From Chrysochromulina tobinii (lineage: Eukaryota), in NCBI GenBank assembly GCA_001275005.1, contig JWZX01003327.1:1-46698 (forward strand): 46,698 bases of DNA, written 5' to 3'. Made by a program: the position numbers and the translations under genes. Positions 6,520-43,536 of this stretch are shown piece after piece (positions within the stretch are counted from its first letter, which is position 1; each line of letters starts with the position of its first letter). Under the pieces are notes generated by a model that was not told the origin of the DNA, searched no databases, and saw only the letters and a program-made list of their open reading frames with translations.

Positions 6520-8682
6520 TCAGAGCGTCATACCGGCGCGCGCGCCGTGGTTGAAGTCGAGGAACAAGAGTTCCTTGTACGTGGCGAGCGTCCAGAGCGA
6601 CGGGGGCACGAGCGCTTCGACGGCGTCGCAGATCTTGCGGATGTCGACCATAGTCTCGAGACGCAGCACGCGCGCCGCGGTGGCCTTGTCGTACGACGTG
6701 TCTTTGTGTTCCATGGCGTGTAGGTCGGCCTCGAGCTTCTTGACGGCCGCCGTGAGCTGGGTGACCTGGCTGGTCAGGTTCACCTTGGTCGCCGACGGGA
6801 TGATGTGCTGCTGGATCATGTCGACCATGCACTTGGCCTCGATCTCGACGGTGCCCGCGTAGTGGTTGTACATGATCGTGGCGCGCGCCTCGCACTCGTC
6901 GGGCTTCATCACATTCATCTTGGAGAAGAGGTCTTTGTTCTTTTTATCGGTGAGTTTCTTGCACGCCTCGACGCCCGAGTCGATGCGGCACAGGCGGCGC
7001 CTCTCCGCCTCGATCGGCCACTCTTTTGAGTAGCCGTTGCCGTTGAAGATCACATCCCACGACTCGTTGAGCATCTCGGCAGCCACATCGGCGGCCGCCT
7101 TGCCCTCATCCATCTGATCCGCGATCATCTGGAAGGACTCGGCGATGGTGGTGCAGAGCACGGTGTTGATCATCGACACGTTCTGTGACGAGCCGGCCGC
7201 GCGGAACTCGAAGCGGTGGCCGCCGTACGGGAAGGGCGAGGTGCGGTTGCGGTCCTCTGCCGGGATCTTGACGGGTGCCACGCCGTCGATACCGAGGTCG
7301 ACGGTGACCTTGTTCGGGGTGTACACTACGTTCCTCTTGCCCTTGCGGAATTCATCGAGGTAGTCGGTGAGCTGCTGGCCCAGGTACGTGGACATGATCG
7401 AGGGCGGCGCCTCGCACGCCCCCAGCCGGAAGTCGTTACCGGGCGAGGCGATTGCCATGCGGAACAAGTCGCCGTGCACGAACATGGCGCGCACGACGGC
7501 CGAGATGACGATGGGGAAGATGTCAGCGTTGCCCGACTTCGCAGTGAGCTGTGGGCCATTCATCAGGTTGACGCCCTCCGGTGTGCCCAGCGAGAAGTTG
7601 TTGTGCTTGCCCGAACCGTTGACGTGGTTGAAGGGCTTCTCGTGGAGGATTCCGACGAGGCCGTGCTTCTGCGGGATCTCGTCAATGAGCTGCATGAGGA
7701 CGAGATTCTCGTCGATCTGGGTGGAGGCGAGGCCGAAGTAGGGCGCGCACTCGTACTGGTTGGGGGCCACCTCGCGGTGGCGCGTCTTGAACGGGCAGCC
7801 CATCTTGAAGCCCTCGTGCATGATCTCCTGCATGCAGGCCAGGGCCACTTGGTTGAGCGGCGCCATGTAATGGTCGCACAGCTCCTGGCCGCGCGCCGCG
7901 TCACGTCCCATGATGGTGCGGCCGGCGAACTGGAGGTCGGGACGCTTGTAGTACGCCTCGCGCGGAATCAGGAAGAACTCCTGCTCCAGGCCGATGTTCG
8001 GGATGATGTTCGACACCTCGTAGCCGAGCTTCGAGAGCAAGCGCTTTCCCTGCGTGCCGAGGACCTTCATAGACTTGAGGAGCGGCGTCTTCTCGTCGAT
8101 GGCGATGCCGTGCCACGAGACGAACATGGTCGGGATGAAGACGGTGTCACCGCGGATGAACACGGGCGACGTCGGGTCAAGGATCGTGTACCCGCCGGCC
8201 GTGTGAGTGGCGCGCAGGCCGCCGTTGTGGAACGACGATCCGTCGGACTCGCCCTGGATGAGCTCATCGCCCGTGAAGACGTACTCGAGCTCGCCCTTCT
8301 TGTTGAAGTTGAACATGGCGTTCTGCACGCCGGCAGTCTGGCCGAGGCGCAGACCGGCCGAGCCGAGCGGCTGGAAGCAGTGGACCGTCATGGTCGCGCC
8401 GCGTTCCTTCGCCCACTCGATGATGGCCTTGGCGACCTTGTGGGCAGTTTCCCTGTCCAAGGTCCAGTCGGAGGTCGAAAGGAGGTTCGCGGGAAGGCCC
8501 TGCTTCACTAGGTACTTGGCGGCCACCGTGCCCATGAACCGGTTTTGGCCATACGAGCTCCTGTTGGCCTCGAAGTTAATCTCGTACGGCGGCGGCGCGC
8601 TCGGAGGAGGCGTCAGGGTCGCGTCGTACATGTGCACGTCGTCGAACGGCATGGTAGACATGTGGGATTGGCAGCCGCCCAT
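6520..8682 (-). CDS. glnN: Glutamine synthetase type III
   Basis: 720-aa intronless ORF with GSIII motifs: HCFQPL, GESDGSSF.NGGLRATHTA.GY, GLEQEFFL, HREVAPNQYE, HEKPF..VNGSGKHNN, DRNRTSPFPY, FEFRAAGSSQ. Confidence 0.95.
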   Translation of the reverse strand: MGGCQSHMSTMPFDDVHMYDATLTPPPSAPPPYEINFEANRSSYGQNRFMGTVAAKYLVKQGLPANLLSTSDWTLDRETAHKVAKAIIEWAKERGATMTVHCFQPLGSAGLRLGQTAGVQNAMFNFNKKGELEYVFTGDELIQGESDGSSFHNGGLRATHTAGGYTILDPTSPVFIRGDTVFIPTMFVSWHGIAIDEKTPLLKSMKVLGTQGKRLLSKLGYEVSNIIPNIGLEQEFFLIPREAYYKRPDLQFAGRTIMGRDAARGQELCDHYMAPLNQVALACMQEIMHEGFKMGCPFKTRHREVAPNQYECAPYFGLASTQIDENLVLMQLIDEIPQKHGLVGILHEKPFNHVNGSGKHNNFSLGTPEGVNLMNGPQLTAKSGNADIFPIVISAVVRAMFVHGDLFRMAIASPGNDFRLGACEAPPSIMSTYLGQQLTDYLDEFRKGKRNVVYTPNKVTVDLGIDGVAPVKIPAEDRNRTSPFPYGGHRFEFRAAGSSQNVSMINTVLCTTIAESFQMIADQMDEGKAAADVAAEMLNESWDVIFNGNGYSKEWPIEAERRRLCRIDSGVEACKKLTDKKNKDLFSKMNVMKPDECEARATIMYNHYAGTVEIEAKCMVDMIQQHIIPSATKVNLTSQVTQLTAAVKKLEADLHAMEHKDTSYDKATAARVLRLETMVDIRKICDAVEALVPPSLWTLATYKELLFLDFNHGARAGMTL

Positions 8683-10013
8683 GTTGTTTGAGTTGCTTGT
8701 TTATGTGCGGGCGCGTGACCGCGAGGGTTGGGGAGTAGTCGATCCCTTTTTTCGGTCGGAAAATCCTGCATCCGGGGTCTTGCATCGGCTCATTTCCGCA
8801 GCTGGATGCTGGAAGTTGAAGTGTAACGCTTTTTTGGTAGTTTCAACCGTCGGACGATAAAAATGTCGCGAAACACATACCGGTAGCATCCTCTACAAAG
8901 CCTCTTGTCCCCAGATTAACCCAGGAGACTAGGAGACAACGTTCTTGCTCGAGATACATGGAGATAAACAAGCAAGAACGCAAAGCAAGCAAGCAACCGC
9001 ACGCGTTTACGGTTTAGTCGTGTTGTGTTGTACCTGTTGTTTCGACTGCTTCTACAGTGTAGGCAATTGAGTGTAGGTCTTAGCTTGCCACCTTGCTTTC
9101 GAGATACAATGTAAACAAGGTGAAGACTGTAGAAGACTGTAGAAGAGCTTTTGCATGCATTGAGTCTGTGTCAGGCTCTCAGGCATATTACATGTATAAT
9201 TACATGTATTGTGGTTACATGGGTTATTGGCTTATTGCGTCTCCGTGTGCACGGCAGCTGGGGTGTGGAGCTACTCCGGGGTCAGGGGGGGGCGGGGGCT
9301 ATCCCTTTGGGGGGGGTCCTATCGGATACGTATCCTGATGTATCTGATCATGTATCGTGCGTGTAAGGTGTACATGTATCCTGAAGGATTTCGTAATATG
9401 TGGGACTGTCATCTCGCACCTGTGGCGCTCGTGGGAGGAGCGCGCTGCGTCACTGTGCAACGCAGAGCTCTGTCCTGTACCTCCTGTAGGTGCTCGAGCG
9501 ACGAGTGTATCCTCGGCGCGCTCGCGGCGGCGCGAAACGTCGTCAAGGGATGTCGACGGGGGTGTACTGTAACGGGGGTGTACAGTAACAGCTTTTGTAA
9601 CGGCGACGGTGCTCCTCTCGCGTGAGCGCGGGGGCAAGCAAGCTCGCGCTCCGAGCGCGCGCGCGCGCCGCGCGCTCGGCAGCCGCCGCTACAGTACCGG
9701 TACGTGCATCGACGTGCGCGGCCCTCAACATGTAGCTTAGTTGCGCAGGTCGTCGCAACTCGTTGCTTAATCCAGCGGGGGCGCCCGGCGAGCCGCCCTG
9801 TAGGAATCCTACATGCCGAGAAGCGCGAATAAAGCGCGTGGTTTGTCGCTGTTGGAGATTTTCACGAACTTGTGCTGACACACGTGCCCCCTGTAATTTG
9901 CAGCCCCTCTTTTCTCATTGTGAATGGGGGCTCACGCCGTGCCCGCGCGCCGGGCCGTCTCGCATGAGTTCTCGCACGTGGAAAACGGGAAAACGGGGAG
10001 AGAGAGAGTGCGT

Positions 10014-15440: not shown

Positions 15441-16210
15441 GAAAGGAAAGGTTCCGTTACAATCTCGTGTGCCACTGTGAAGTGTGAACACAGTCCGAGA
15501 GCAGGTCTGTGCGGGTCTGAGCAGGTCTGAGAGCCTCAACTCAACTGGACCGTTATCAATTAGGCCTTACGCCTTAGATTGTTAGATACGTGATGCGGAC
15601 GGTGACATGCGGCCCGACGAAGGGGGGTTCTCCGTCTGCCTCTCACATTGTGGTCACGCGTACTGTACTCACAATCCAATCGAAAGCGGGGCTGATAGAG
15701 ATGCGGCCGCCGCAGCAGCATCGATGCGCCTTGTCCCCAGGCGCATTCAGTACTCTCAGTGCTCATTCATCCACGCACACGTTCCACAACACGGAGGGCC
15801 TCTGAGTGAGGTGAGGGGAAACGGCGCCGTGGTGAACACCTGCAGCTCTTCGATCCACGTTCCACAGCACTTGAGGACCGCGCGCGTCATAGCACGCGGC
15901 TCTTCCACAGGACGGCCGAGAACGCACGCCGTACTGGGCGGCGTTGAGAGCACGCGCCGCGGCGGCACCGGAGAGAGCCGAGGGTCAGGAGGGAGGCGCC
16001 ATACTGGGCGGCTGCATGCAAGTGCTCACCACGGCGGCACTGGAGAGAGCCGAGGGGAGGGAGAGCAAAGACCAGCCGTCGGGGCGGCTGCATGCAAGTG
16101 CTCACCACGGGGCCATCTCCTCCGTCGGTCGGGGGAAGCAGCCGCGGTCGGGCCGCTGCGTCATCTCGTCGCCGCGCCTTAGGCCACATGCGCCGCAGCA
16201 CGGGCGCGCC

Positions 16211-16290
16211 GTCATTGCGCCTCGGGTTCCGTCATTGCGCCTCGGGTTCCGTCATTGCGCCTCGGGCTCCGTCATTGCGCCTCGGGCTCC
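16211..16290. repeat. 4 x 20-bp tandem repeat of the GSK3 gene's last codons plus stop
   Basis: gtcattgcgcctcggg(t/c)tcc x4. On the minus strand each unit encodes EPEAQ*. Confidence 0.95.
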
Positions 16291-18427
16291 GGGTCCGCGT
16301 GCGCATCCTCTTTGCTCCCGTCTGCCAGCCGACTGCGCCGCCGCCCACTCGCCGAAGCCACGCGCGCCGCGCCGGGCGTGGTGGGCGACAGGCCGATTGG
16401 TGGTACCGTACCCAGATTGTCGGTTTGCAGCTGCAAGCCGCCGAGGGGGGGCTTGCGCACGGCGGGCGAGGGGCCGCTCGCAGGCATCTGGTCGAGCGTG
16501 CCTTGACGGGTTGGCATTGGTGGCGCGCGCCGCCCGAACGAAGCTGCGTGAGCTCGACTGCTCTCAGACTCTTCGCCCTGCTCTCGCGACTCTTCGGAGT
16601 TGGCACCGCCGCCCCCCGCGCCGCCGCGCGGCTGCGCGTGCAGCGCCTCGATCTGCCGCTGCGCCGCCTTCAGGCGCGCAGCGAGAGCTTCCTTCTCGGC
16701 GAGCGCTTCATTGAGTTGTCGCTGTGCCTCCTTAAGATCGGCGAGCTGCTGCTGCGCCATGCGCGCCGCCCCCGAGGCGCCGCTGGCCGAGGCCGAGGCG
16801 GCGGCGGCCGCGCCGCTGCCCGCGCCGCCGTCGGCGGCGCTGCTGCTCGCCCCTTCACAGGGAAGCTGGCGCCGCTGCGCCTCATGCGCTATCCGCTGCT
16901 GCAGCACCCTGATCGTCTCGTCACGCTGCCTCAGGGCCGCCGCGAGATCTTGCCTGACCGACGTGACGACGGCAGTGGAGGTGGCGTCGGAGAGACTATC
17001 GCTCCGGAGAGTGTGCTCCACGTGGCGAAGCACCGTCTCCGACAGCTGCGCCGGCATACCGCCGCGCACCTCGTCAAAGTGCGCTCCCACCTGATGAGGG
17101 AGGCAATCAAAGCTCATCAGGGCTGATGAGGTAGGCAATCAAAGCTCGTCAAAGTGCGCTCCCACCCGTCGCTCCCATTCCGCGGCGGTGATGGTCTGCC
17201 GAGAGCCCTCAATCGCACTCGGCTGTGGCGGCGGCATCGGGGTGGAGCTCGTCGAGGGTACGGTGCATCCCTCGACGAGGGACTCGACGCCGTCGAAGAA
17301 GGCATGCCTCAGCGCCATCGAGGCCGTCAGCCGCTTCTCCGGATCGTAGTTGAGCAGCCGCTGGGCAAGGTCGATGGCGGCCTCGGGTGTCTGTGCTGGG
17401 AACATTCGCTCCCATGGGTACGCCTTCAGTTTTGGCAGGTCGTCGGCGCAGCAGGTGGCGCGCATGGCCTGAAGGTCGTGGTCGGTGGGCGTGCCCAGAA
17501 GCTTCATGATCTCCACCAGGTGCTGCTGAGTCGAGTCCTGCCCCTGGTAGGGCAAGTGGCCGAGGAGCAGCTCCATCAGGATCGTTCCGACCGACCACAC
17601 GTCCACGGACACCGAGTACTCGGTCGCGCCGAACATGAGCTCGGGCGCGCGGTAGTAGCGCGAGCAAATGTACGAGACGTTGGGCTGCCCCTTCACGAGT
17701 ACCTTGGAGCACCCAAAGTCGCACAACCGGCACTTGAGGCTTGCCGGGTCGCACAGCAAATTGTCGGGCTTGATATCTCGATGGCAGATGCGGCGCGCGT
17801 GGATGTACTCGAGCGCCCCAAAGGTTTGCCACAGGTAGGCCTTGATGTGATCGGGGTGGAAGCGCTTGGCGCGCTTGTGGTACTTGAGCGCGATCGAGCG
17901 GATCGTCTCGGGCAGGTAGTCCATCACGAGGTGTAGAAAGGTCTCATCCTTCTTGCGTCCGTTCTTCTCGAAGGAGTGGCGCAGCCGGACGACGTTGTCG
18001 TGCTCCATGACCTTCATCATCTGCAGCTCGCGGTTGTGGTAGCGACGGTCGAGCAGCACCTTTTTTATGGCGACGATCTCGCCGTCCTCGGTGCGCGCGC
18101 GCCACACGATGCCAAAGGCTCCGTGGCCGACGACCTTCTCCAATTGGTAACGGTGGCCGCCGCCGTCCCAGACGGTGCCCTCCTCGACGCCCTCCATGAG
18201 ATCCGCGACCTGCGCGCAGGTGCGAGCGGACAGTCAGGCGTGTGATCGACGTCAGCGCGCCCGGCTGGCCAGGTCACGCTGCGCATGCTCTGCTGTGATG
18301 AGGAGAGAGGCGGTTTGGAGGTGCGCGATGGGAAGGCTTAACGAAGCCAAGAGCTCGCTGCGAGGAGCTGCGTGCGGTCCGGAAGCGGGTGCTGGGGGTG
18401 GCAGTGGCTCACATGGTCCGTGCTCAT
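16272..18427 (-). CDS. GSK3: GSK3/shaggy-like kinase with long C-terminal coiled-coil extension; exons 18427-18413, 18209-17166, 17090-16272
   Basis: GHGAFG, VAIKK, HRDIKP, DFG and the GSK3 activation loop GQPNVSYICSRYYRAPEL. Two phase-0 GT-AG introns give a 625-aa frame. Confidence 0.9.
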
Positions 18428-18652: not shown

Positions 18653-19260
18653 ATGCCGCTCGCGTCGCTTCTGCCTTTGGGCATCATCATGGGCGCCATC
18701 GGCGTGTGTGGCACGCTGCTGTCGGTGATCCCGTACGCGACGCGCGGCGAGGTACGTGCCCGCACCCACGCTAGTTCACAGGCCAGGAGAGGCCACGCAC
18801 ACGCAGAGGCGGCGATCAGAGGAGTGCGCAGGCAGCGCTGCGGCCGGCACAGCCGACACGTTCCGTGTTGCGGCTCTCGCACCTCCTGGCACTGTCAGCG
18901 CCTCCGCAGCCTTTTGAATTGGCAAGATCGGCAGGACCGGCAGCTATGGCAGCCATGGAAGTCATGGCATGGCTGCGGCGCAGGCGGCAGCAGGTCAGCA
19001 GCAAACAGCAGCAAACAGCAGCAGTAACCTCCTGCTGAGCTCGAGGGCGCGGCTGCATGTGGAACGAGGATGCAAGAGCACAGGCCCAGGGCTGCCACTC
19101 AGTCACCAGCTCCTGCGCCGCGCGCGTCCCTCCGGTGCTGACCGTGAGCCACCTGTCCCCCTCTGCGTGCTTCGCGCAGCGCAAGCGTGTCATCAAGGAT
19201 CGATGGGTGGAGGCCATGTACGACCGAGACGCTTTGATCAAGATGCAGTTCGGGAAATGA
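18653..19260 (+). CDS. NDUFA1: Complex I accessory subunit NDUFA1 (MWFE)-like; exons 18653-18751, 19180-19260
   Basis: The spliced 59-aa product MPLASLLPLGIIMGAIGVCG...GE|RKRVIKDRWVEAMYDRD matches the MWFE pattern (TM helix, then KR...D.W...M..RD). GT-AG intron 18752-19179. Confidence 0.8.
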
Positions 19261-22772: not shown

Positions 22773-24373
22773 TCAGTCAAACCCCGGCCCGAAGCAGCCG
22801 GAGCCTGCACCGGCGCCCATGGCAACGCGCTCATTCTCCGTCATCTTGGAGCGTGGCTTCTCGTCACGGAGCCACTTGTGCCTCTTCTTGGCCTTGGCGT
22901 CTGCGGGAGAGTACTTGCGCTTGTGCTCGGCACCGTGCTGGGCGCCGGGAAGCGTCGGGCCCGCGGCGGCCGCAAGCTCGCCGTCGGACGGCGCCGTCGC
23001 GGGCGGCGGCGGCGGCAGCACGCCTTCGAGACGGTATGTGCGCGAGGAGGCGCCGAACGTGAGCAGCGAGCCCTGCTTGAGCAACACGGCCTCGAAGGGG
23101 CGAAGCCGTGTGCCGTTCACGGCGGTGCAATGGCTCGATTTGAGATCGATTAGGTAGAGCCCGCCGTTGGTGTGGTGCACGAGCGCCGCATGCTGGCGTG
23201 AGATGGACGGGTGATCGAGCTGGAAGTCGCACGTGAGCGAGCGCCCGAACGTGTACATCGGGTGCTCGCCCACTGGGAGCACCTGCAGCAGTCATCAGCA
23301 ATCATCGGCAGTCATCGGCAGTCATCATAATTCATCAGCATTCATCAGCATTCATCAGCAGTCATCAGTGGGCATGGGAGCACCTCGAGCTCCTCGCCGC
23401 CCTTGGACACCACAAGCGACGCGTCCTTCCCGAGGGAGGGCGGAGCAGACCAGCTCGGAGGGAGCTCGAAGTCGCCCTCGTCAATGGGCTTCGGTTTCGG
23501 CAACGGGACGTACACGCCAGTACGCTCGCCGCTGAGCTCCTTTTGGAACTCGAGCAGGCAGCGCCAGAAGCCTTCATTCGGTTGGATGATCGGGCGCGCC
23601 GCAGCGACATGCTCGCGAGCCCGCTGCGCACTCCACCCCTCCTGACGCATGAGGTACGCGATGCAGAGCGACGCAGAGCGTGAGACGCCTCGCGAGCAGT
23701 GGACGAAGACGGCGGTCTGCGCGGCTCGCGCGGCCTCGATGATGTCGAAGGCGGTGCCAAAGTGCGCCTTGATGTCCGCCTCCTCCACGTCGCGCACGTC
23801 GCACCATGTGTGCCGCACGCCCGACTCGGACACGCTCGCCTTCAGGCTAGACGGCAACTCGGCGAGCGCGGTGAGGGCGTGCTGGATGTTGAGCTGCTCG
23901 CGCAGACGCGGGAGCGCGGCCGCGTCGGTGAGATCGCCGAGGTAGAGCAGCCCCGGGAGCACGCACGACGGGCACAGCGGCCGCTTGGCTGCCTTGGACG
24001 ACGACTGCTTGGCACACATGAACGGGAAGGCGGACTCGAACGCCGAGAAAGGCTCACTAAGCAGCAAGAGTTCGCGGCAGCCGCCTCCGCGAAGCAGCGC
24101 GAGCGCGACTGCGTGGTCTCCACTCGCCGGCTCGGCATCTATGAGGCAGATGTCACGGCCCATCCATGAACGATCCGAGGCTCCGACCACCTCCACCTCG
24201 CCCTCTGAAGTGAGCTCCACGCGATGCGAGCCCCGGATGATGCGCTGCTTGCTGCTACCGCTCTCACGCAGGTCCAAACACACTGGGGAGCCACCAGAGG
24301 GCCAGTTGGACTGGTGCTGCAGCAGGTTGAAGAGCTCGAGAGAGGTGACTAGGCGAGGAGGGCGGTCGGTCAT
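22773..24373 (-). CDS. Rhodanese-like + dual-specificity phosphatase + FHA domain protein; exons 24373-23384, 23282-22773
   Basis: CLDLRE...IRGSHRV (rhodanese-like), DVEEADI and VHCSRGVSRS...IQPNEGF (DSP), YTFGRS...HPSISRQHA...DLKSSHCT.VNG (FHA). Phase-0 intron 23283-23383; 499 aa. Confidence 0.85.
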
Positions 24374-31215: not shown

Positions 31216-31429
31216 TGGGCAGTGGCGCAGCGTCGGGAGTTCGATCTGCATGCAAGTGCTCACCACGGCGTCGTTTCTCATGGGCAGTGGCGCAGCGTCG
31301 GGAGAATGCACTCGAGAGGGTGGATCTGCATGCAAGTGCTCACCACGGCGTCGGGAGAATGCACTCGAGAGGGTGGATCTGCATGCAAGTGCTCACCACG
31401 GCGTCGGGAGAATGCACTCGAGAGGGTGG
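31216..31429. repeat. 53-bp tandem repeat (about 2.5 units plus a partial) containing GCATGCAAGTGCTCACCAC
   Basis: Units start at 31295, 31348 and 31401. The core motif also occurs at 16014, 16090, 31248 and 31574. Confidence 0.9.
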
Positions 31430-33902: not shown

Positions 33903-34143
33903 TTTTTGCACGGAGTATCTCCGAGCGGAGAGGTGTGTCTCGCGGGGTGCTTTCGCGAAACTTTCTTACGGTTTTAACGAAGTTTAGCCGCCATCCCCTA
34001 AACATTCTGCGTCTCGCACCGGCGACTACGCTCAAACAACCCACAGCAAGGGAAGGACGTCCCCGATAAGTGAGATGACTTCGCCAACTGTGAGTCGGGA
34101 TGATCATTGACAAAACTGATGACAAGACCTCGTCCCCTGTTCT

Positions 34144-37100
34144 TCAGATTTGGAATTCAATGACCTCGGCCGTCGCCGGTGCCGCGCCCGCGGCGGCCGC
34201 GACGAGCGCCTCGTCAATCTCTTCGACAGCAAAGGAGGGCGATTGGTCCATTCCAAAGAGCTCAAGGCGCGACGAATGGAAGTGGAGCAGTGATGGACGG
34301 TGGCCCACGGAGAGGTACGTGATGCCCGGGACGGCGCCAATGGCGCGGTACATGGCGGCCTCATTTTTGAGGTCGAGGGCGGAGGTTGCCTCATCGAGGA
34401 TCGCGAGGCGCGGCTTGTTGACGAGCACGCGCGCGAACGCGAGCCTTTGCTGCTCGCCCAAGCTCAGCTCATCACCCCAGTCGCGCACCTGCAATCAGCG
34501 TCCATCATCAGCGCACCCCAGTCGCGCACCTGCAATCAGCGTCCATCATCAGCGCCCATCTTCAGCGCTCATCATCAGCGCCCATCTTCAGCGCTCATCA
34601 TCAGCGCCCATCAGCGCCCATCATCAGCGCCCGTCAGCGCCCATCAGAGGCCACTCACCTTCCATAAGCGGCACGTCCGCGGCACTCACCTAACACAATC
34701 GCACCTCAATTGCATTCAATCGCACTCTCGAGGAGCCTAATCATTGCTAATCAATCTCATACGATGCTAATCAATCGCACTCAATCGCACTCTCAATTAG
34801 CCGAATCATTGCTAATCAATCTCATACGATGCTAATCAATCGCACTCAATCGCACTCTCAATTAGCCGAATCCACGTACCCGATCAAGCCCCTCCTTGCC
34901 AAGCGCAGCCAGCCGACCAAGCTGCACCGTCTGGAGCGCACGCAGGAGCGCCTCATCCGTGTTCGTGCGCGACCACTCGTCGACAGTGCTTGGGTACACA
35001 AGCTGCTGGCGCAAGCTGCCCAGCGTGCAATAGGGGCGCTGCGGCAAGAACATGGTCTGCCCGACGGGTGGGCGCGTGACCTCACCGGAGCCGCGATCCC
35101 ACAGGCCGGCCATCGCGCGCAGCATGGAGGACTTGCCTGTGCCCGAGTTGCCCATGATGAGCAAATGGTGGCCCGCATGCACGTCGACCGACACGTTGGC
35201 GAAGAGCTTGCGAGTGCCGTCGGGGGTGAGAAAGCACAAGTCACGCACCTGATGAGGGAGGCAATCAGCGGCCATCAGTGGCAATCAAGGAGCTCGCAAG
35301 GGCCGTTGGGAAAGATGAGGCTCAGGCGACGCACCATGAGCAATGGCTCTTTCGCCCCCCCCCAGGGTGCAATCAGTATTCAATCATCATTCAATCAGCA
35401 TGCAATCAACATGCAATCAGGCATGCAATCAGGCGACGCACCGTGAGCAACGGCTCTTTCGGGTCCCCCCAAGGTGCAATCTCTCGGTTGAAGATGCGGC
35501 CCGTCGTACTTTGCCGTGTAACGACGCCCAGTAGGGGCTGAGCCGCCAGCGGCGACGCTGCTGGCGGCGGCGGCGATGCTGCTACTGCTGCCAGCGCCGC
35601 CGCTGCCTCGTCCGCGGCGCCCACGGGCGGTGCGGACGGCGGGCCGCGCTGCCCATACAGAATTCGATCCCATAGTGAGCGCTCGGGTTCATCCACTGGC
35701 TGAGTGAGTCGAGCGAGGTGTTCTTTGCTCAGCCGGAACGTCGCGTTACTCTCGCCGCCGCTTTGGAAGCTCTCCATGCGCTCGACGAATGTGCTCAGCC
35801 GAGCGAGCCCTGTGGGGCAAGCACGAGAGGATGGTCCTCAGAGGTCCTCAGAGATCCTCAGAGGTCCTCAAAGGTCCTCAGAGGTCCTCAAAAGCCATCA
35901 GAGGCACTCAGAGGGCCATCAGAGGGCCATCAGAGGGCCATCAGAGGGCCATCAGAGGGCCATCAGAGGGCCATCAGAGGGCCATCAGAGGGCCATCAGA
36001 GGGCCATCAGAGGGCCATCACCTGCGGAGAAGGACGATAGGCCCTCGAACTGGTTGACGATGATCGACAGGTCATTCAGGACGTGATTGAACGCGCCGGT
36101 CGATTGCGTAATCACGCCGAGCTCTACTGAGCCTGCCAAATGTAGACATCGAGACGATGAGCACCGGCAGTGCCAAATGTGGACAGCGAGACGATGAGCA
36201 CCGGCAGGAGGCCATCACAGGCCATCAGAAAGGCCATCAGAGAGGCAACCAGAGGCTTTCAGGGAGGCCATCAGGGGTCATCAGAGGTCATCAGAGAGGC
36301 AACCAGAGGCTTTCAGGGAGGCCATTACCTGCAAAGTAGAGAGGGGAGACGACGAGAACCGGTAGGATCTGGATCAGGTACGAGTAGCCCACTGTGAAGA
36401 ACTCGAGGTTGCGCATAGTGCCTAGGATGGCGCGCTTGTTGCCCACCACGCCACTCAGCCGCGCGCTCACTTCGGCCGCCTCCTGCGCTTCACCCTGGGA
36501 CAAGAGCGAGCACGGCGAGCATCAGGGAGAGGTGCCCAGAGAGAGAGAGGTGCCCAGAGAGAGGTGCTCAGAGAGAGAGGCGATCAGAGAGAGAGAGGCG
36601 ATAAGAGAGAGGTGCCCAGAGAGGCGATCAGAGAGAGGCGATCAGAGAGAGGTGCTCAGAGAGAGGTGCTCAGAGAGGCGATCAGAGAGAGGCGATCAGA
36701 GAAGGTGCTCAGAGAGAGGTGCTCAGAGAGAGAGGTGCTCAGAGAGAGAGGCGATCAGAGAGACCAGATCGTCGCCGATCTGCGCCCACCTGGTAGACAC
36801 CCACCTGGTAGAGAGACCCTCAGAGAGGCAATCAGAGAGGCAATCAGAAAGGCAATCAGAGAGGCAATCAGAGCCGATCCGCGCCCACCTGGTAGAAGGC
36901 GATAGACTCTGCGTTCTCTCTCAAGCGCACAAGCGAGTAGCGCAAGTCAGCCTCGCGTAAGAGCTGCTGCGCATTCTGACCAACGAGAGCCTGGCCGAGC
37001 TTGATGGTGGTTATGGAGCCCACGCCCGCGTACACGAAGATGGCGTAGAACAGGTTGGGGTAGATGGAGTACAGGATGCCCGAAAAGGAGGCGAGGTCGA

Positions 37101-37947
37101 TGACGGCCGTCATCAGTGTGATGAAGAAGTCGAGAGACACCTTGGTGAACGCTGCCACGTCCTCAGTGATGCGCTGGTCCGGGTTGTCAATCTCGCGGTC
37201 AATCTCAATCTTGTAGTACGCCTGGTCGGAGTAGTACTGCCGTGCGAGCTCCGTCGTCATCCACTCACGCCAGTTGAGTGCGAGCCGCGCGCGCTGGAAC
37301 TTGTAGAGCACCTGACGAGGGAGGCACTCAGCGGGCATCAGCGGCCATCCGCATGAATCAGCGGCAGCCAGAGGCCCACGTGAAACTCATGGGGCACGCC
37401 CATCAGCGGCAGTCAGCGGCAGTCAGCGACCCTCATGATACTCATAGAGCACCGTTAGCGGTGTGGCCACAGCCAAGCCGAGGGCGTAGTTGGCCGTCTT
37501 CTCAAGGAAGAGGACCTGATCCTTGGCCGAAAGGGCCGAGTAGAAGTCACGGCCGACGTACGAGAAGATCACCGAGACGCCCGAGTTCATCAGGACGAGC
37601 AGCAGCATCAGCCCAAAGTTGAGCTTGGCGCCCTCGGCCTGCTGAAAGTAAGGTAGCGCGAGGCGCCAGAAGAGGCGCAGGCGCTCCTGCACGGTGACTG
37701 GCGCCGCCGCGTCCATTGAGACATCGCCTTCAGAAACCTCACCCTCATTTGCCGCCGTCGCGCAGATGGGCCGCGCGCGCGCCGACGACGACGACGCCGC
37801 CACTGCCACGAGCGGCGGCACGGCCGCCGCGCCTCGCCGTCGCAAGACGACGGGCGGCGCGGCGGCGAGCGCGGTCAGGCCTATCGACAGGGCCGAGGAG
37901 GAGGTCGTGGTCGCAAAGAGCGACACCACCAGTAGCGGCCGGTGCAT
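34144..37947 (-). CDS. ABC transporter D-family half transporter, probably plastid-targeted; exons 37947-37453, 37311-36889, 36494-36329, 36132-36022, 35809-35442, 35248-34880, 34488-34144
   Basis: DNPDQRI, EADLR..LVRLRENAESIAFY (EAA-like), Walker A GNSGTGKS, FLPQRPY, LSLGEQQRLAFAR, ILDEATSALD and SVGHR. Six GT-AG introns give a continuous 758-aa frame. Confidence 0.9.
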
Positions 37948-38464
37948 GGTATCGGATCGTCAGTGCTCGCACCGCACGTCCGCGAAAGGCGAGACCGCGA
38001 ACTTTTCGGTCGACTTCCCTCGAAGATGCTGGCGCGAAGATGCGCCGTCTCGGTGTTTTGGGCGCCCGAAGTTACGCCGCGAGAACTCAACGTGACGGGG
38101 TCGATCACATGGGACGGTACATATACATGTATCAAGAATGCAGCTGGTCAAAGAATGCATCAACATGTGTTTACATGTGCGATATGGCACACTAGACACT
38201 TCGACAAAGTCGAAAGTGTAACACGCTAGTTACAATTCCGGTGAGTGAAGAATGCTGCATCGCATGCGTATGCCATGATGTATGCACTAAAATGCGGTGT
38301 AATAAACTACACGGAATTGAGTATAAACTCGAAGTATAGACAAACTACACGTCACCCGTTGCGACAAGCGAGGACACCGGCGAGTGCGCGGGAAATTCCT
38401 GCGCGCGGGCCGCGGGCCTTTTCAAGGGTGACTGGTTGGTTCCCTGTTATCTTCGGCTCACGTC

Positions 38465-40472: not shown

Positions 40473-41618
40473 CTAATTGGCCTCGACGACCGCAGGGGCG
40501 GCCTTGACAATCTTGGCGAAGCCGAGCTGCCGGTGCTCATAGTCGAACTTGACGTAGTGGGCGCGCATGAACACGTCACCGAGGATGTACAAAGGGCCGG
40601 CGGGTGCGGGCACATCGAGGCCGGTCATCGCGAAGAGGCACTCCGGGCCGTTCTGGAGCGTATAGTCCTTCTTGGTCAGCACGTACTCGGCACCCGCGAT
40701 CGAGATGGTGATGTCCGGTCCCGGACCATCACAAGGGATCGTGTACTCCTTATTCAGGGGTGGGATGGGGCCGAGAGGCTTGGCGCCGACGGCGGCGGCG
40801 ATGGCCTTGATGTCGGCTGAGGGTGCAGCGAGGAGCGAGGTGCCCGAGTCGATGATCGCCCTGTGCGCCGAGCTCACCGACTTGCCCGCGATCGTGATAT
40901 TGTCCAGCGAGATCTCCCAATAGCCAAATTTGTTGGTCGCCGTTGGGATTACGGGTACATACTTAAACTCACCGGTGAAGTGGGCCGGGTTGACGCCCCC
41001 AAGGACGAGCTCGCCGGCGGCGCCGTCGTGGCCGAGATAGAAGGCGAACACAGGTTCGGAGAGCTTGCCGGACGCCACGAGTGCCATCAGAGGAGTCGGA
41101 ACACCGTCGACTGAAATGTCGTCGAGGCCCATGCCACAGATGCCGTCAAACTTGCCGAGCGCGTACGCGGGTCCGAGGCCGGCGGTGTTGTTGACCTCGG
41201 CGAAGAGGTATGACGTCAGCGGAATGTCGCCCATCGTGACCACGTCACGAGAATAGAAGCCTGACACGGGTCCACTGCCGTACTGGATGTGGAAGGTAGA
41301 GCCATTGACTGTATGCGTTGCAGACTTGCGCGAATCGTAGTAGTGGTGCCGGCCCTCCGCGAAGTTGGCCACCCACAGGTTGGACGAGCCGGTGTCGTAA
41401 ACGACCTCGAGCTTCTGCGGCGGCGTGCCCACTGAGATCTCGCCGTAGTACTGCGCGTCCTGATAATCATTAATCACAATGGAATCGACCTCGCCGAGCG
41501 CGGAGTAGCCCAGGCGCAGGCTGCGCTCCATGGTCGTGCGGTCCGGAAGCTCGCGCTTCTTGAGCGGCATGGTGTAGAAGGCTTCGGAGGCAGCGAGGAG
41601 CGTTACGACGGCGAGCAT
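40473..41618 (-). CDS. Pepsin-family aspartic protease (cathepsin D-like), secreted/lysosomal
   Basis: Signal peptide, DAQYYGEI.VGTPPQ, two catalytic motifs DTGSSNLW and IIDSGTS, and ILGDVF. Confidence 0.95.
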   Translation of the reverse strand: MLAVVTLLAASEAFYTMPLKKRELPDRTTMERSLRLGYSALGEVDSIVINDYQDAQYYGEISVGTPPQKLEVVYDTGSSNLWVANFAEGRHHYYDSRKSATHTVNGSTFHIQYGSGPVSGFYSRDVVTMGDIPLTSYLFAEVNNTAGLGPAYALGKFDGICGMGLDDISVDGVPTPLMALVASGKLSEPVFAFYLGHDGAAGELVLGGVNPAHFTGEFKYVPVIPTATNKFGYWEISLDNITIAGKSVSSAHRAIIDSGTSLLAAPSADIKAIAAAVGAKPLGPIPPLNKEYTIPCDGPGPDITISIAGAEYVLTKKDYTLQNGPECLFAMTGLDVPAPAGPLYILGDVFMRAHYVKFDYEHRQLGFAKIVKAAPAVVEAN

Positions 41619-41708
41619 TATTCGTTGTTGCGTGTGGTCCAGGCGTCAGTGTCAGGAGTCGCCGAGCGAGGGCTGCGCTCCAAACATGAAAGCGAGCGCC
41701 CGACATCA

Positions 41709-43536
41709 AGAGTCCTTTCCGTCGATGGCTCAGGAGAGGCAGATGGTGGGTGGGGGGTTGTCGTTGTACACGGAGGTCGTGGGACCCAGACTGATACTAC
41801 GGCCCGCCACCATGCCACTTTCTACGGACCGATTACGCTCCAGACGACGGCCCCACCTTTCTTGGGCGCCGAGCGCGGTACCAACAACGTGGCTGAACTC
41901 ACGGCCTTTGCGGAAGCCCTCGTGTACCTACGGGACATCGAGGGATCCGCCACGCCCGCCATCATTCGTCCGGACTCCACGTATGCCCGCGACGTGGCCC
42001 TTGGTACCGTCACCATCTCCGCTAATTGTACCCTTGCCCGCCAAGTGCGGCAACTATGGATTCACGAGGAGGCTCGACGCGGTGGCCAACTATGGGCTCT
42101 ACACGTTAAAGCCCACTCCTCTAATAAATGGAACGCAGCGGCGGATCATGCAGCGGCTCGCGGTGCCCGCGGCGAGGCCCGAGGCGTAGGGACACGGTGG
42201 GCGGACTGGCCACCGCTCCCACCCCGCAACCTCCGCGCCCATGAGGTGAGTGAATCTGAGCGTGTCATCCGTGCAACACATGCCTTTGGTGTGCTTGCCA
42301 TCCCTGTCCCTGTTGGTGATCACCTGACGTCGACAGACCAGATAGAGGCGTGCACACGAGCCATCCTACTCCGCCTCAACCTGGACAGGAGTCCACGTGC
42401 TCCACAGGCAGTTGCCCGGGTACGCGCTGCACGGACGCTGCTCCTTGATGCTACCCGTCAGCGTGCGGAGGCTCTCCGCCTCATCCGAGAGGGCCTCCAA
42501 CCGATTACGCGGGTGTTAACCTGTCCGGTTAATGCCGCTGCCATGCGCCGCTACATTCGAAACGCAGGTCCGGAAGCGGACGCCCCCAGGGCGGATGGCC
42601 TTGGCACTCTGCGCGAGCGCGCTCGGGACTTCCTGCACGCCCTCGGACAGAACCACGCCGTTCGCATCACGTACCATCACTGTCGACTCGGCGCTGCCCT
42701 CGTGGCGGCGGGATTCATATGCACTGCTCGTGAGTACGCCCTCCGAGGGGATGTAGATCCCTTCCGACTCCCGCGTGCCCTGCGCGACGTTGCCTTTGCT
42801 GGCCGTGGCCATGACCTGGATGACTCGGCCTCTTACCCCCGTGCGTGCCTTGATGTGTTCCAATCGGGGCGTGAACAGTCCAGACTGTTCCTCGCGCACC
42901 GTGAGCAAGTCCTCGCTGAGGTTGGGCTCTTCTTTCTCGGACCCCATGTCTCAGCACCTGCGCGCCGCAAAGCCGCGAAAGACTTGTTCAATGCCCTTGA
43001 TAATGATGGCTCCCTGGAGGCTTGGGAACGACGCCAGGGATGCCCGGCGATGATGCAAATGCCCCCCTTTGCGGTCGGGACTGACGGGGGAGGTCTTCAG
43101 CCTCCGAGCTTACCAGGATAGCCGCCGCGCTCTGACAGGCGAGTTTACTCGTCGGATGCCCACACTGGTCGCCTTTGTTCGCGCTTGGCTTGCACTCCAC
43201 AAGCCCGATAGCGAGCACAAATTCGCACTCACGGCCAAGTCTTTTTTCCTTCAGGAGGCGGAAGGCCTCTCGCGCGCCGCGAAGCTTACCTGGTCACGTC
43301 TGCGGGGCGCTGGGGAAATCACGAGCTTACAACATGATGGTGTTGTCATGGTACTCTCCCAAGGCGTGACATCTACGGATGCATGTGCTGCCTTGACGGA
43401 GGTGTGCACCGCGGCGCTTGGCTATACGCAGCCCGTTGAGGAGAAACCCTTTCAATTCGACCCTGGTGACTCGGAGGATGACCAGGACAGTGTTGCTGAT
43501 GCGGACGCGCGCCCTAATACTCCCCTGAACCCATGA
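41709..43536 (+). CDS. RNase H1-type domain / degenerate J-domain / TV-Pol-like (family A-related) polymerase, split by a +1 frameshift at 43054-43118
   Basis: RNase H: VDGS, TNNVAEL, PDSTYA, HVKAH, NAAAD. Polymerase-like: AREYA...RLPRALR, HDLDDSASYPR, RKAAKDLFNAL, then in the +1 frame FFLQEAE and SLQHDGVV. Confidence 0.7.

What the first reader, a model, noticed from the sequence alone, without database searches (positions are those of the whole stretch)
17070..17166. Intron that begins with a perfect 21-nt copy of the next exon's start: a snapshot of intron birth?
On the minus strand, GSK3 intron 17165-17091 starts GTGGGAGCGCACTTTGACGAG, identical to the first 21 nt of the next exon (17090-17070). 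The remainder is two tandem copies of TGATTGCCT(A/C)CCTCATCAG. The donor GT therefore comes from duplicated exon sequence and the acceptor from an inserted cassette, as expected for an insertion with a long target-site duplication that is spliced out cleanly.
Basis: partly seen in the sequence, partly recalled or inferred. Interest (0 to 1): 0.8.

Follow-up and report, generated by a model that had tools for sequence, protein, structure and literature searches.

The report
Newborn, still-polymorphic intron in haptophyte alga
A 75-base interruption in a kinase gene of a freshwater alga starts with an exact copy of the coding sequence that follows it, is likely spliced out as an intron, appears to be missing from other copies of the same gene in nature, and has dozens of look-alikes in other genes, so it likely shows new introns being made by copying the end of an old intron into a staggered DNA break.

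Summary
Confirmed and generalised. The 75-nt GT-AG segment (17165-17091, minus) opens with a perfect copy of the next exon (22 nt with the preceding G) and holds an in-frame TGA. RNA contigs leave the genome exactly where the copy ends, and the spliced protein aligns gap-free with homologues. A protein identical to the spliced product is encoded without interruption on a 28-kb contig; relatives' genomic-type ORFs also lack the intron. It is therefore likely a recent, still polymorphic gain in Chrysochromulina tobinii or a conspecific. It is not unique: 79 of 139 metagenome sites with the same acceptor cassette carry an upstream copy of the next exon's start (0.5% in shuffled pairs), and 50 look like de novo insertions. 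Duplications run 9-55 nt, junctions show microhomology, repeats are locus-specific chimeras, and events cluster at 60-95 nt. Other alleles carry an antisense cassette with a duplicated target elsewhere in this gene. It works like an introner (donor from the duplicated target, acceptor brought in) but fails the fixed short-TSD, TIR and end-to-end family tests. Best reading: repair-type templated insertion of intron ends at staggered breaks, filtered by splicing; an RNA-templated route is the main rival.

The parts
17091..17165 (-). GSK3-like gene intron 2, 75 nt, GT..AG; in-frame TGA if retained
   Evidence: RNA contigs diverge at 17145; spliced product equals P0167
17145..17166 (-). Left copy of the duplicated target: last exon G plus first 21 nt of the intron; supplies the GT donor
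   Evidence: 22-nt exact repeat, spacing 75
17070..17091 (-). Right copy: acceptor G plus first 21 nt of exon 3
17123..17144 (-). Cassette copy 1 (CTT + 19-mer with one change; its AG would be out of frame); contains the TGA at 17141-17139
17113..17122 (-). 10-nt spacer resembling the last 10 nt of the duplicated exon piece (junction microhomology; 32-nt period)
   Evidence: TRF 17091-17151; sequence
17091..17112 (-). Cassette copy 2: constant family end TGATTGCCTCCCTCATCAG with likely branch A at 17107 (-17) and the acceptor AG
   Evidence: same end plus GT in 134+ metagenome loci; branch point inferred from recalled yUnAy consensus
18413..18427 (-). Exon 1 coding part (MSTDH)
   Evidence: matches the N-terminus of KOO21869.1/P0172
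18210..18412 (-). Intron 1, 203 nt, no exon duplication and no cassette; likely old (relatives' ORFs read through an intron-like stretch at the same place)
17166..18209 (-). Exon 2: GSK3/shaggy-like kinase domain
   Evidence: Pfam PF00069 E 1.8e-61; homologues named CMGC/GSK
16272..17090 (-). Exon 3: 272-aa tail conserved in haptophyte homologues; missing from the 361-aa public model
16632..16655 (-). Site B: empty here; other alleles carry a 15-20-aa in-frame antisense-cassette insertion (with a ~6-aa duplicated target in 3 of 4) or a stop-containing insertion
23283..23383 (-). Class member: intron between DSPc and FHA exons, starts with 9 nt of the next exon, then 10-nt repeats
   Evidence: RNA contig X13 record 15 stops at 23375 and runs on 214 nt
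37312..37452 (-). Class member (older-looking): ABC-transporter intron with a decayed ~17-nt copy of the next exon start and a variant cassette end
35249..35441 (-). ABC-transporter intron ending in the exact cassette; 6-nt match to next exon; internal re-copy of upstream exon end plus donor
34473..34555 (-). Perfect 41-nt tandem duplication across an acceptor (two AG|GT junctions, 34530 and 34489)
31216..31304 (+). Second cassette motif (GCAAGTGCTCACCACGG) between two 24-nt direct repeats not starting with GT, downstream of an ORF
15960..16110 (+). Two 76-nt units with the second cassette motif, antisense to the kinase gene and downstream of its stop

Best explanation
This is a 75-nt segment, very likely spliced as an intron and likely gained recently, that was probably made when repair synthesis copied the 3' end of an existing intron into a staggered break, duplicating the 21-22 nt between the nicks. 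SHOWN: the duplication; the family-wide acceptor end; the same footprint at 79 of 139 sites; variable duplication length; uninterrupted ORFs of the same protein on long contigs. INFERRED steps: (1) Two nicks 10-55 nt apart leave a target that is later filled in on both sides. (2) A free 3' end primes on a few matching bases in another intron's repeat tract, sometimes a neighbour in the same gene. It slips and re-primes, which yields locus-specific chimeric 10-32-nt repeats; here exon CTTTGA/GAG is fused to the cassette. (3) It rejoins the target through 1-4 shared bases (G, AG, CAG). (4) Selection keeps coding-region events that are sense, end at the AG, start the duplicate with a donor-like GT/GC and reach about 60 nt or more; these restore the mRNA exactly. 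Other products survive only inside introns, outside coding sequence or in frame. (5) The two copies then drift apart and the footprint fades. The template is more likely DNA than RNA, but this is not settled.
For: Splicing: RNA contigs stop at 17145 in 3 of 3 runs and continue in 2; expected next-bin depths 5.7 and 16.7 against observed 6.1 and 17.5. No gap against homologues. Polarity and youth: P0167 is identical to the spliced product on a 28,209-nt contig; P0168 (28 substitutions, 15,701 nt) and P0176 (6,122 nt) are also uninterrupted; 6 listed proteins stop at the intronic TGA and 2 start inside the intron. Class: 50 de-novo-type sites, duplicate 9-55 nt with no fixed length, 17 of 50 perfect, frames agree across the predicted junction in 34 of 41. 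Pfam seams: NDUFS1 profile 36 to 37, RhoGAP 74 to 77. Filter: cassette sense in 90 of 104 scorable sites; next-exon start donor-like in 111 of 139 against 38% of GTs in coding sequence; G before donor 43 of 50 against 103 of 507. Drift: 27 of 55 mismatches at third codon positions. Repair-type signs: junction microhomology >=3 nt in 13 of 29 against 18%; 24 duplications break inside a repeat tract, not at the AG, with a similar period (median 73); a second cassette gives the same footprint; same-contig introns share cassette variants, 7 of 22 pairs against 97 of 3218; antisense in-frame insertion with duplicated target in P0200, P0176 and P0183, whose core peptide is the antisense reading of L112's cassette.
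Against: Intron-absent alleles are seen only as proteins, not DNA; a splice-aware caller, a transcript or a collapsed repeat could mimic some of them (5 of the 8 lie on contigs under 3 kb). The G331S/A339T haplotype occurs both with (P0180, P0182) and without (P0181, P0184, P0194) the intron, so recombination, precise reversion through the repeats or parallel gain must be invoked. The junction row was not displayed; X13 stops at the branch, so some unspliced molecules or DNA may be present. 60 of 139 sites show no detectable duplicate. The neighbour-sharing signal comes from only 3 contigs. Ten duplications start at or next to a cassette end without GT/GC (not all independent), which suits a template with a defined 3' end (RNA) better than random DNA switching. 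The negative link between duplicate and insert length (rho -0.65) may be partly due to decayed duplicates being under-measured. No polymerase or nuclease was identified.
Confidence: 0.55

Rival explanations
1. RNA-templated insertion (target-primed reverse transcription by LINE machinery acting on excised intron RNA or a tiny SINE-like RNA): the nick primes on the RNA's ...CAG 3' end, the copy is 5'-truncated, and second-strand cleavage makes a variable TSD.
For: Fixed right end with variable left end, variable TSD and 5'-junction microhomology are the classic signature (established knowledge). Ten duplicates begin at or next to a cassette end without GT/GC. Local copying also fits co-transcriptional RNA. 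Non-LTR-derived introners exist, about 5% of classified cases (PMC12130899, passages).
Against: 24 duplications break inside tracts with a similar period. There is no poly(A). Repeats are built partly from the target's own sequence (e.g. L029, L101). In L102 a unit of cassette plus following GT sequence is repeated on the strand opposite to the other cassette matches, which an excised intron would not carry (one case). No partner element found; the genome could not be searched.
Confidence: 0.22
2. A discrete non-autonomous DNA element: a MITE-type introner, or an HUH element (Helitron/Replitron) with non-canonical variable TSDs.
For: Same splice logic as Symbiodinium and Polarella classes 4/5 (bioRxiv 10.1101/2020.10.14.339549). 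Replitron-1 of Chlamydomonas makes variable TSDs at RG targets, and one Replitron locus is reported in C. tobinii (PMC10288648, passages). The cassette end has a 5-bp CTGAT/ATCAG inverted match.
Against: TSD 9-55 nt, against 3-9 bp for introners (PMC9860276). No terminal inverted repeats and no end-to-end family similarity. No unusual folding (z 0.17). Only 26 of 50 targets end in AG/GG. Two different cassettes give the same footprint.
Confidence: 0.09
3. Old position renewed, or loss polymorphism: an ancestral intron here had its acceptor tandemly duplicated with the exon start and the old part was then lost; intron-free alleles are revertants.
For: Tandem duplication across acceptors is common: 21 of 79 positive sites and window 34473-34555. 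22-nt repeats allow precise deletion. Mixed haplotypes.
Against: Genomic-type ORFs of relatives are uninterrupted at this site: P0168, P0003/P0133 (which seem to read into intron 1) and P0153 (which seems to read through another intron). No remnant of an older intron upstream.
Confidence: 0.09
4. Not a functional intron: an insertion allele that truncates the protein at 361 aa, as in the public model KOO21869.1, or an assembly artefact.
For: The public C. tobinii model ends at the intronic TGA. The kinase domain is complete before the insertion. X13's contig ends at the branch.
Against: RNA contigs of X14 and X18 leave the genome at 17145 and continue, with matching depth in exon 3. The tail is conserved and open. 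The allele is on 30 contigs.
Confidence: 0.05

Closest known systems
Introner-like elements that carry the 3' splice site and recruit the 5' site from the TSD (Symbiodinium; Polarella glacialis classes 4/5 and 6/8/10; bioRxiv 10.1101/2020.10.14.339549, parts 1-2 of 4 read; PMC9860276 passages)
   Same: Acceptor brought in, donor taken from the 5' end of the duplicated target, mRNA restored exactly, many copies.
   Different: Those have fixed 4- or 8-nt TSDs and alignable bodies, with inverted repeats in Symbiodinium. Here TSDs are 9-55 nt, only ~19 nt are shared, the rest is locus-specific repeat, and there are no TIRs.
Staggered double-strand-break intron gains in Daphnia pulex (PMC4202315, passages)
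   Same: Direct repeat of the adjacent exon's terminal bases at the opposite intron end; population polymorphism; secondary internal duplications in young introns.
   Different: Daphnia repeats are 4-12 bp (33 cases) and a review passage (PMC3488318) says the first cases had no obvious source. Here repeats are 2-5 times longer, present at over half of the family's sites, and the insert is recognisably another intron's end.
Marine Chrysochromulina MAG introners (PMC9860276 Fig. 2C legend and supplementary table rows)
   Same: Same genus, intron-generating, TSD, no TIR.
   Different: 4-bp TSD, carry the 5' site and co-opt the 3' site: the opposite logic. C. tobinii and C. parva appear only in the list of genomes screened in the stored part of the file, which was cut.
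Intron gain by tandem duplication of a proto-splice site (Rogers model, recalled; PMC2891723 seen as search listing only)
   Same: Duplicated exon sequence with G|GT gives the donor; pure tandem duplications across splice sites are frequent in this class.
   Different: 54 of the 75 nt are not exon-derived, and the acceptor is imported.
Non-LTR (TPRT) insertions and Chlamydomonas Replitron-1/Helitron insertions with variable TSDs (PMC10288648, passages)
   Same: Variable-length TSD, one defined and one fuzzy end.
   Different: No element body, tail or partner identified; inserts are only 20-120 nt of intron-end sequence.

Membership tests
Introner (transposon-derived intron family) | Many introns at unrelated loci similar along their length | tested here: not met
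   Only the last ~19 nt are shared; 5' parts are target copies and locus-specific repeats
Introner (transposon-derived intron family) | Shared sequence at many unrelated genes, inserted so that splicing restores the mRNA | tested here: met
   134+ loci; frames agree 34 of 41; exact Pfam seams at L012 and L132
Introner, DNA-transposon (MITE) type | Fixed short TSD (3-9 bp) | tested here: not met
   9-55 nt, continuous, 50 sites
Introner, DNA-transposon (MITE) type | Terminal inverted repeats | tested here: not met
   Left ends differ per locus; folding z 0.17
Introner (transposon-derived intron family) | Empty orthologous site | tested here: met
   Protein-level only: P0167, P0168, P0176 uninterrupted on 28-, 15.7- and 6-kb contigs; DNA not seen
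Non-LTR retroelement / SINE insertion | Variable TSD, constant 3' end, truncated 5' end with microhomology | tested here: inconclusive
   Met at de-novo-type sites, but the sample was chosen by its 3' end and 24 events break inside tracts
Non-LTR retroelement / SINE insertion | Poly(A) tail at the element's 3' end | tested here: not met
   None at the 50 sites printed
Non-LTR retroelement / SINE insertion | Autonomous partner sharing the 3' end | not testable with these tools
   No genome held; 0 matches in viral contigs
Staggered-break repair gain (Daphnia type) | Direct repeat of exon terminus at the opposite intron end | tested here: met
Staggered-break repair gain (Daphnia type) | Polymorphic and parallel gains at one site | tested here: inconclusive
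   Alleles ending FDEL* (6), FD* (3) and uninterrupted (8); FD* may be a point change or a second insertion
Pure tandem-duplication intron | Whole intron is a copy of flanking sequence | tested here: not met
   54 of 75 nt are cassette; met only for compound cases such as 34473-34555
HUH transposons (Helitron/Replitron) | Terminal direct repeats or hairpin and a Rep partner | not testable with these tools
   No left terminus or partner seen; genome unavailable
Known structured RNA families | Rfam match | tested here: not met
   0 matches to E 1 in 15800-17400
GSK3/shaggy-like kinase (host gene) | CMGC kinase domain close to GSK3 | tested here: met
   PF00069; same cluster as KOO21869.1 CMGC/GSK kinase; about 50% identity to animal GSK3

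The most novel reading that the evidence does not exclude
Freshwater Chrysochromulina runs a self-feeding intron factory with no transposon: a recurrent ~75-85-nt duplication-insertion process copies pieces of existing introns into nicked DNA, often next door, in either orientation, and splicing alone selects the products that become introns. It is active now, leaving several segregating insertion alleles within one gene, and is missed by introner screens because the bodies do not align.
Probability: 0.35. Interest if true: 0.88.

Novelty: new variant of a known kind. Interest (0 to 1): 0.7.

Why it matters
How new spliceosomal introns arise outside transposon bursts is a long-standing open question. 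Here a culturable alga with a small genome appears to carry many dated footprints (perfect to decayed duplicates), empty alleles in nature, and failed by-products, so break-repair and retro-insertion models can be tested directly. The class would be missed by family-based introner screens, and it misleads gene models: the public 361-aa kinase model stops at the intronic TGA and loses a 272-aa conserved tail.

Tried and rejected
Viral contigs: 0 matches. Prokaryote genomes: 5 matches of the 19-mer, about the 4 expected by chance in 596 Gb (own arithmetic), not followed. A base-level view of the RNA junction was not obtained; only the tables exist. Runs X19-X22 hold none of the stretch and are no evidence. 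Hairpin or ribozyme reading (CTGATGAG/CTCATCAG): fold z 0.17, no Rfam match; rejected. A mirror class (duplicate supplies the acceptor): 28 candidates, mostly re-readings of the same events or duplications across a donor, 11 with non-repeat downstream, frame test 4 of 6; not established. One search's breakpoint count was spoiled by mismatch-split fragments and replaced. Pfam seam test: 34 of the 50 sites had both segments long enough; 5 hit the same family on both sides, 2 were informative and both fit, 3 were uninformative. The orientation classifier was checked only on its training genes (90 of 98). Literature: ten searches found no description of long variable exon duplications at haptophyte intron starts. 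The C. tobin genome paper mentions introns once (PMC4580454, passages); PMC12480563 and PMC8379373 passages hold nothing on it. The Emiliania genome paper and the 2009 Daphnia paper are not held; I recall that the former notes 10-11-bp tandem repeats in introns, unverified. One search fetched an unrelated paper. The 2022 introner supplement was cut when stored, bioRxiv supplements are closed, and subscription papers were not searched; any of these may bear on novelty.

Full report
OBSERVATION. The minus strand carries a GSK3/shaggy-like kinase gene (PF00069): ATG at 18427, intron 1 at 18412-18210, exon 2 at 18209-17166, the segment in question at 17165-17091, and exon 3 at 17090-16272. The 75-nt segment begins with 21 nt identical to the start of exon 3 (22 with the preceding G) and carries an in-frame TGA at 17141-17139. 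The other 54 nt are two CTT+19-mer copies with a 10-nt spacer, a 32-nt-period tandem. The spacer resembles the last 10 nt of the duplicated exon piece, so duplicate and cassette overlap by microhomology.

ORGANISM. The nearest named homologues are haptophyte proteins. The 90% cluster holds KOO21869.1 of Chrysochromulina tobinii, which equals this gene's product up to the intronic TGA. The public model therefore retains the segment and ends at 361 aa.

IS IT SPLICED? Three RNA runs and one DNA run were laid (4 of 22 listed). In all three RNA runs a contig aligns from 17664 to exactly 17145, the end of the duplicate, where spliced and unspliced paths part. In X14 and X18 it continues for 170 and 191 nt. 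If these lie in exon 3 the next bin should show depths 5.7 and 16.7; it shows 6.1 and 17.5. X13's contig ends there. The DNA contigs run through the segment. The joint row was not among the 15 of 32 displayed, and retention cannot be measured from contigs. The spliced protein aligns without a gap to the full-length haptophyte homologues among 47 proteins aligned, and the 272-aa tail has homologues.

IS IT YOUNG? P0167 is identical to the spliced product over 616 aa and is on record from a 28,209-nt contig. The same sources call intron-bearing contigs as a 352-aa ORF ending at the TGA (P0171, 30 contigs) plus a 281-aa ORF starting inside the intron (P0185, 13 contigs), so their callers appear not to splice (15 of 20 and 15 of 24 members listed). 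Among the proteins retrieved, 6 end FDEL*, 3 end FD*, and 8 read straight through. Three of the 8 lie on contigs of 28, 15.7 and 6 kb; two more (P0181, P0194) run into an intron-like insertion downstream; three (P0065, P0183, P0184) could be transcripts. P0168 (28 substitutions) and the more distant P0003/P0133 and P0153 also lack it. Gain in this lineage is therefore likely. Against a simple history, one haplotype (G331S/A339T) occurs with and without the intron. Intron 1 has no duplicate or cassette and seems shared with relatives.

A CLASS, NOT A ONE-OFF. The acceptor end plus GT occurs in at least 134 metagenome loci (scan cut at its limit). Of 139 usable, de-duplicated sites, 28 have an exact upstream copy of 20 nt or more of the next sequence at a GT (null 0.12%) and 79 score 9 or more with mismatches (null 0.47%). 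Removing 21 preceded by another cassette and 14 followed by repeat (overlapping sets) leaves 50 de-novo-type sites: duplicates 9-55 nt, 17 perfect, introns 50-202 nt, median 83 in the 46 simple ones. Coding frames agree across the predicted junction in 34 of 41, and retention would break the frame in 35 of 41. In NDUFS1 (L012) and a RhoGAP (L132) the Pfam profile continues across the seam. The signal is present in both dataset groups, 50 of 93 and 29 of 46. The window has further members in a DSPc-FHA gene and an ABC transporter.

WHAT SELECTION DID. Cassettes are sense to the coding frame in 90 of 104 scorable sites. Next-exon starts are donor-like (GTGC, GTGA, GTAC, GTGG) in 111 of 139 against 38% of coding GTs, and 43 of 50 donors follow a G against 103 of 507. 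Short duplicates go with long inserts (rho -0.65) and only 2 of 46 introns are under 62 nt against 6.9 expected, though decay of duplicates may inflate this. Mismatches fall at third codon positions in 27 of 55 cases, as expected if the exon copy is constrained.

WHAT THE MECHANISM DID. Duplicate length is continuous, which argues against DDE transposases (established: fixed TSD; PMC9860276 gives 3-9 bp). Junction microhomology of 3 nt or more occurs in 13 of 29 against 18%. Repeat units often fuse target and cassette letters. A second cassette, GCAAGTGCTCACC, gives the same footprint in introns (L056, L102, L120, L124) and sits between 24-nt repeats without GT at 31216-31304. Other alleles of this gene carry an in-frame 20-aa insertion with a duplicated IEAL(H/N)A whose core is the antisense reading of the L112 cassette. 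So both orientations occur and the duplication does not need a donor; reverse splicing alone cannot explain it. Neighbouring introns share cassette variants (7 of 22 pairs against 97 of 3218, but from 3 contigs). Duplications that break inside a repeat tract (24) have a similar period to those at acceptors (median 73 against 81.5), while 10 start at or next to a cassette end without GT/GC. The first result favours DNA template switching, the second a template with a defined end. I put repair-type DNA templating at 0.55 and RNA templating at 0.22.

COMPARISON. It works like the acceptor-carrying introners of Symbiodinium and Polarella (parts 1-2 of 4 read) but fails their defining tests. It resembles Daphnia's staggered-break gains, whose exon repeats are 4-12 bp (PMC4202315, passages). 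The Chrysochromulina introners of 2022 have 4-bp TSDs and the opposite logic; C. tobinii and C. parva occur only in the genome list of the stored, cut supplement. The 2024 review (PMC11282704, passages) and the 2025 survey (PMC12130899, passages) do not mention haptophytes. Replitron-1 offers a precedent for variable TSDs. An earlier agent's note on another piece of this genome (e1-2577349) reached a similar class-level view; it is not independent support. New here are the empty alleles, the antisense allele, and the evidence against a discrete element.

VERDICT. Real, very likely spliced, likely recent and polymorphic, and representative of an apparently undescribed variant of intron gain. 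Mechanism moderately supported. Novelty: new variant of a known kind. Interest 0.7.

Noticed in passing
window 41436-43536 (+): Long ORF with an RNase H domain (PF00075, E 1.7e-9) followed by an overlapping 160-aa ORF with an HDG motif reminiscent (recalled) of family A polymerases; possibly a mobile-element remnant. Not linked to the introns by any test.
   Followed up: partly
window 34100-37950 (-): ABC transporter gene (ABC_membrane_2) with about six repeat-rich introns, several with internal re-copies of exon end plus donor (e.g. near 36890-36780 and 35380-35330); a local hotspot.
   Followed up: partly
window 18749-19178: RNA joint with GT..AG ends skipping 428 nt in 3 of 3 RNA runs: a spliced plus-strand transcript upstream of the kinase gene with no ORF assigned.
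   Followed up: no
window 16632-16655 (-), proteins P0159, P0160, P0181, P0194, P0199: A third allele type at site B reads into a stop-containing insertion, so this one gene has several segregating insertions.
   Followed up: partly
L102:250-440: A unit of cassette plus following GT sequence is tandemly repeated on the strand opposite to the locus's other cassette matches, suggesting capture of an intron-exon junction.
   Followed up: partly
L007, L019, L036, L052, L099: Cassette followed by GC instead of GT, in several cases with an upstream copy: likely GC-AG members of the class.
   Followed up: partly
window 6520-8700 (-): Uninterrupted 726-aa frame encoding a type III glutamine synthetase.
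   Followed up: no
window 14144, 15960, 22100, 31216, 31243, 34706: Several direct repeats with 65-80-nt spacing outside the cassette-ended introns, matching the period of the insertion events.
   Followed up: partly
window 16209-16291 (-): The kinase stop codon lies in a 20-nt unit repeated four times.
   Followed up: no
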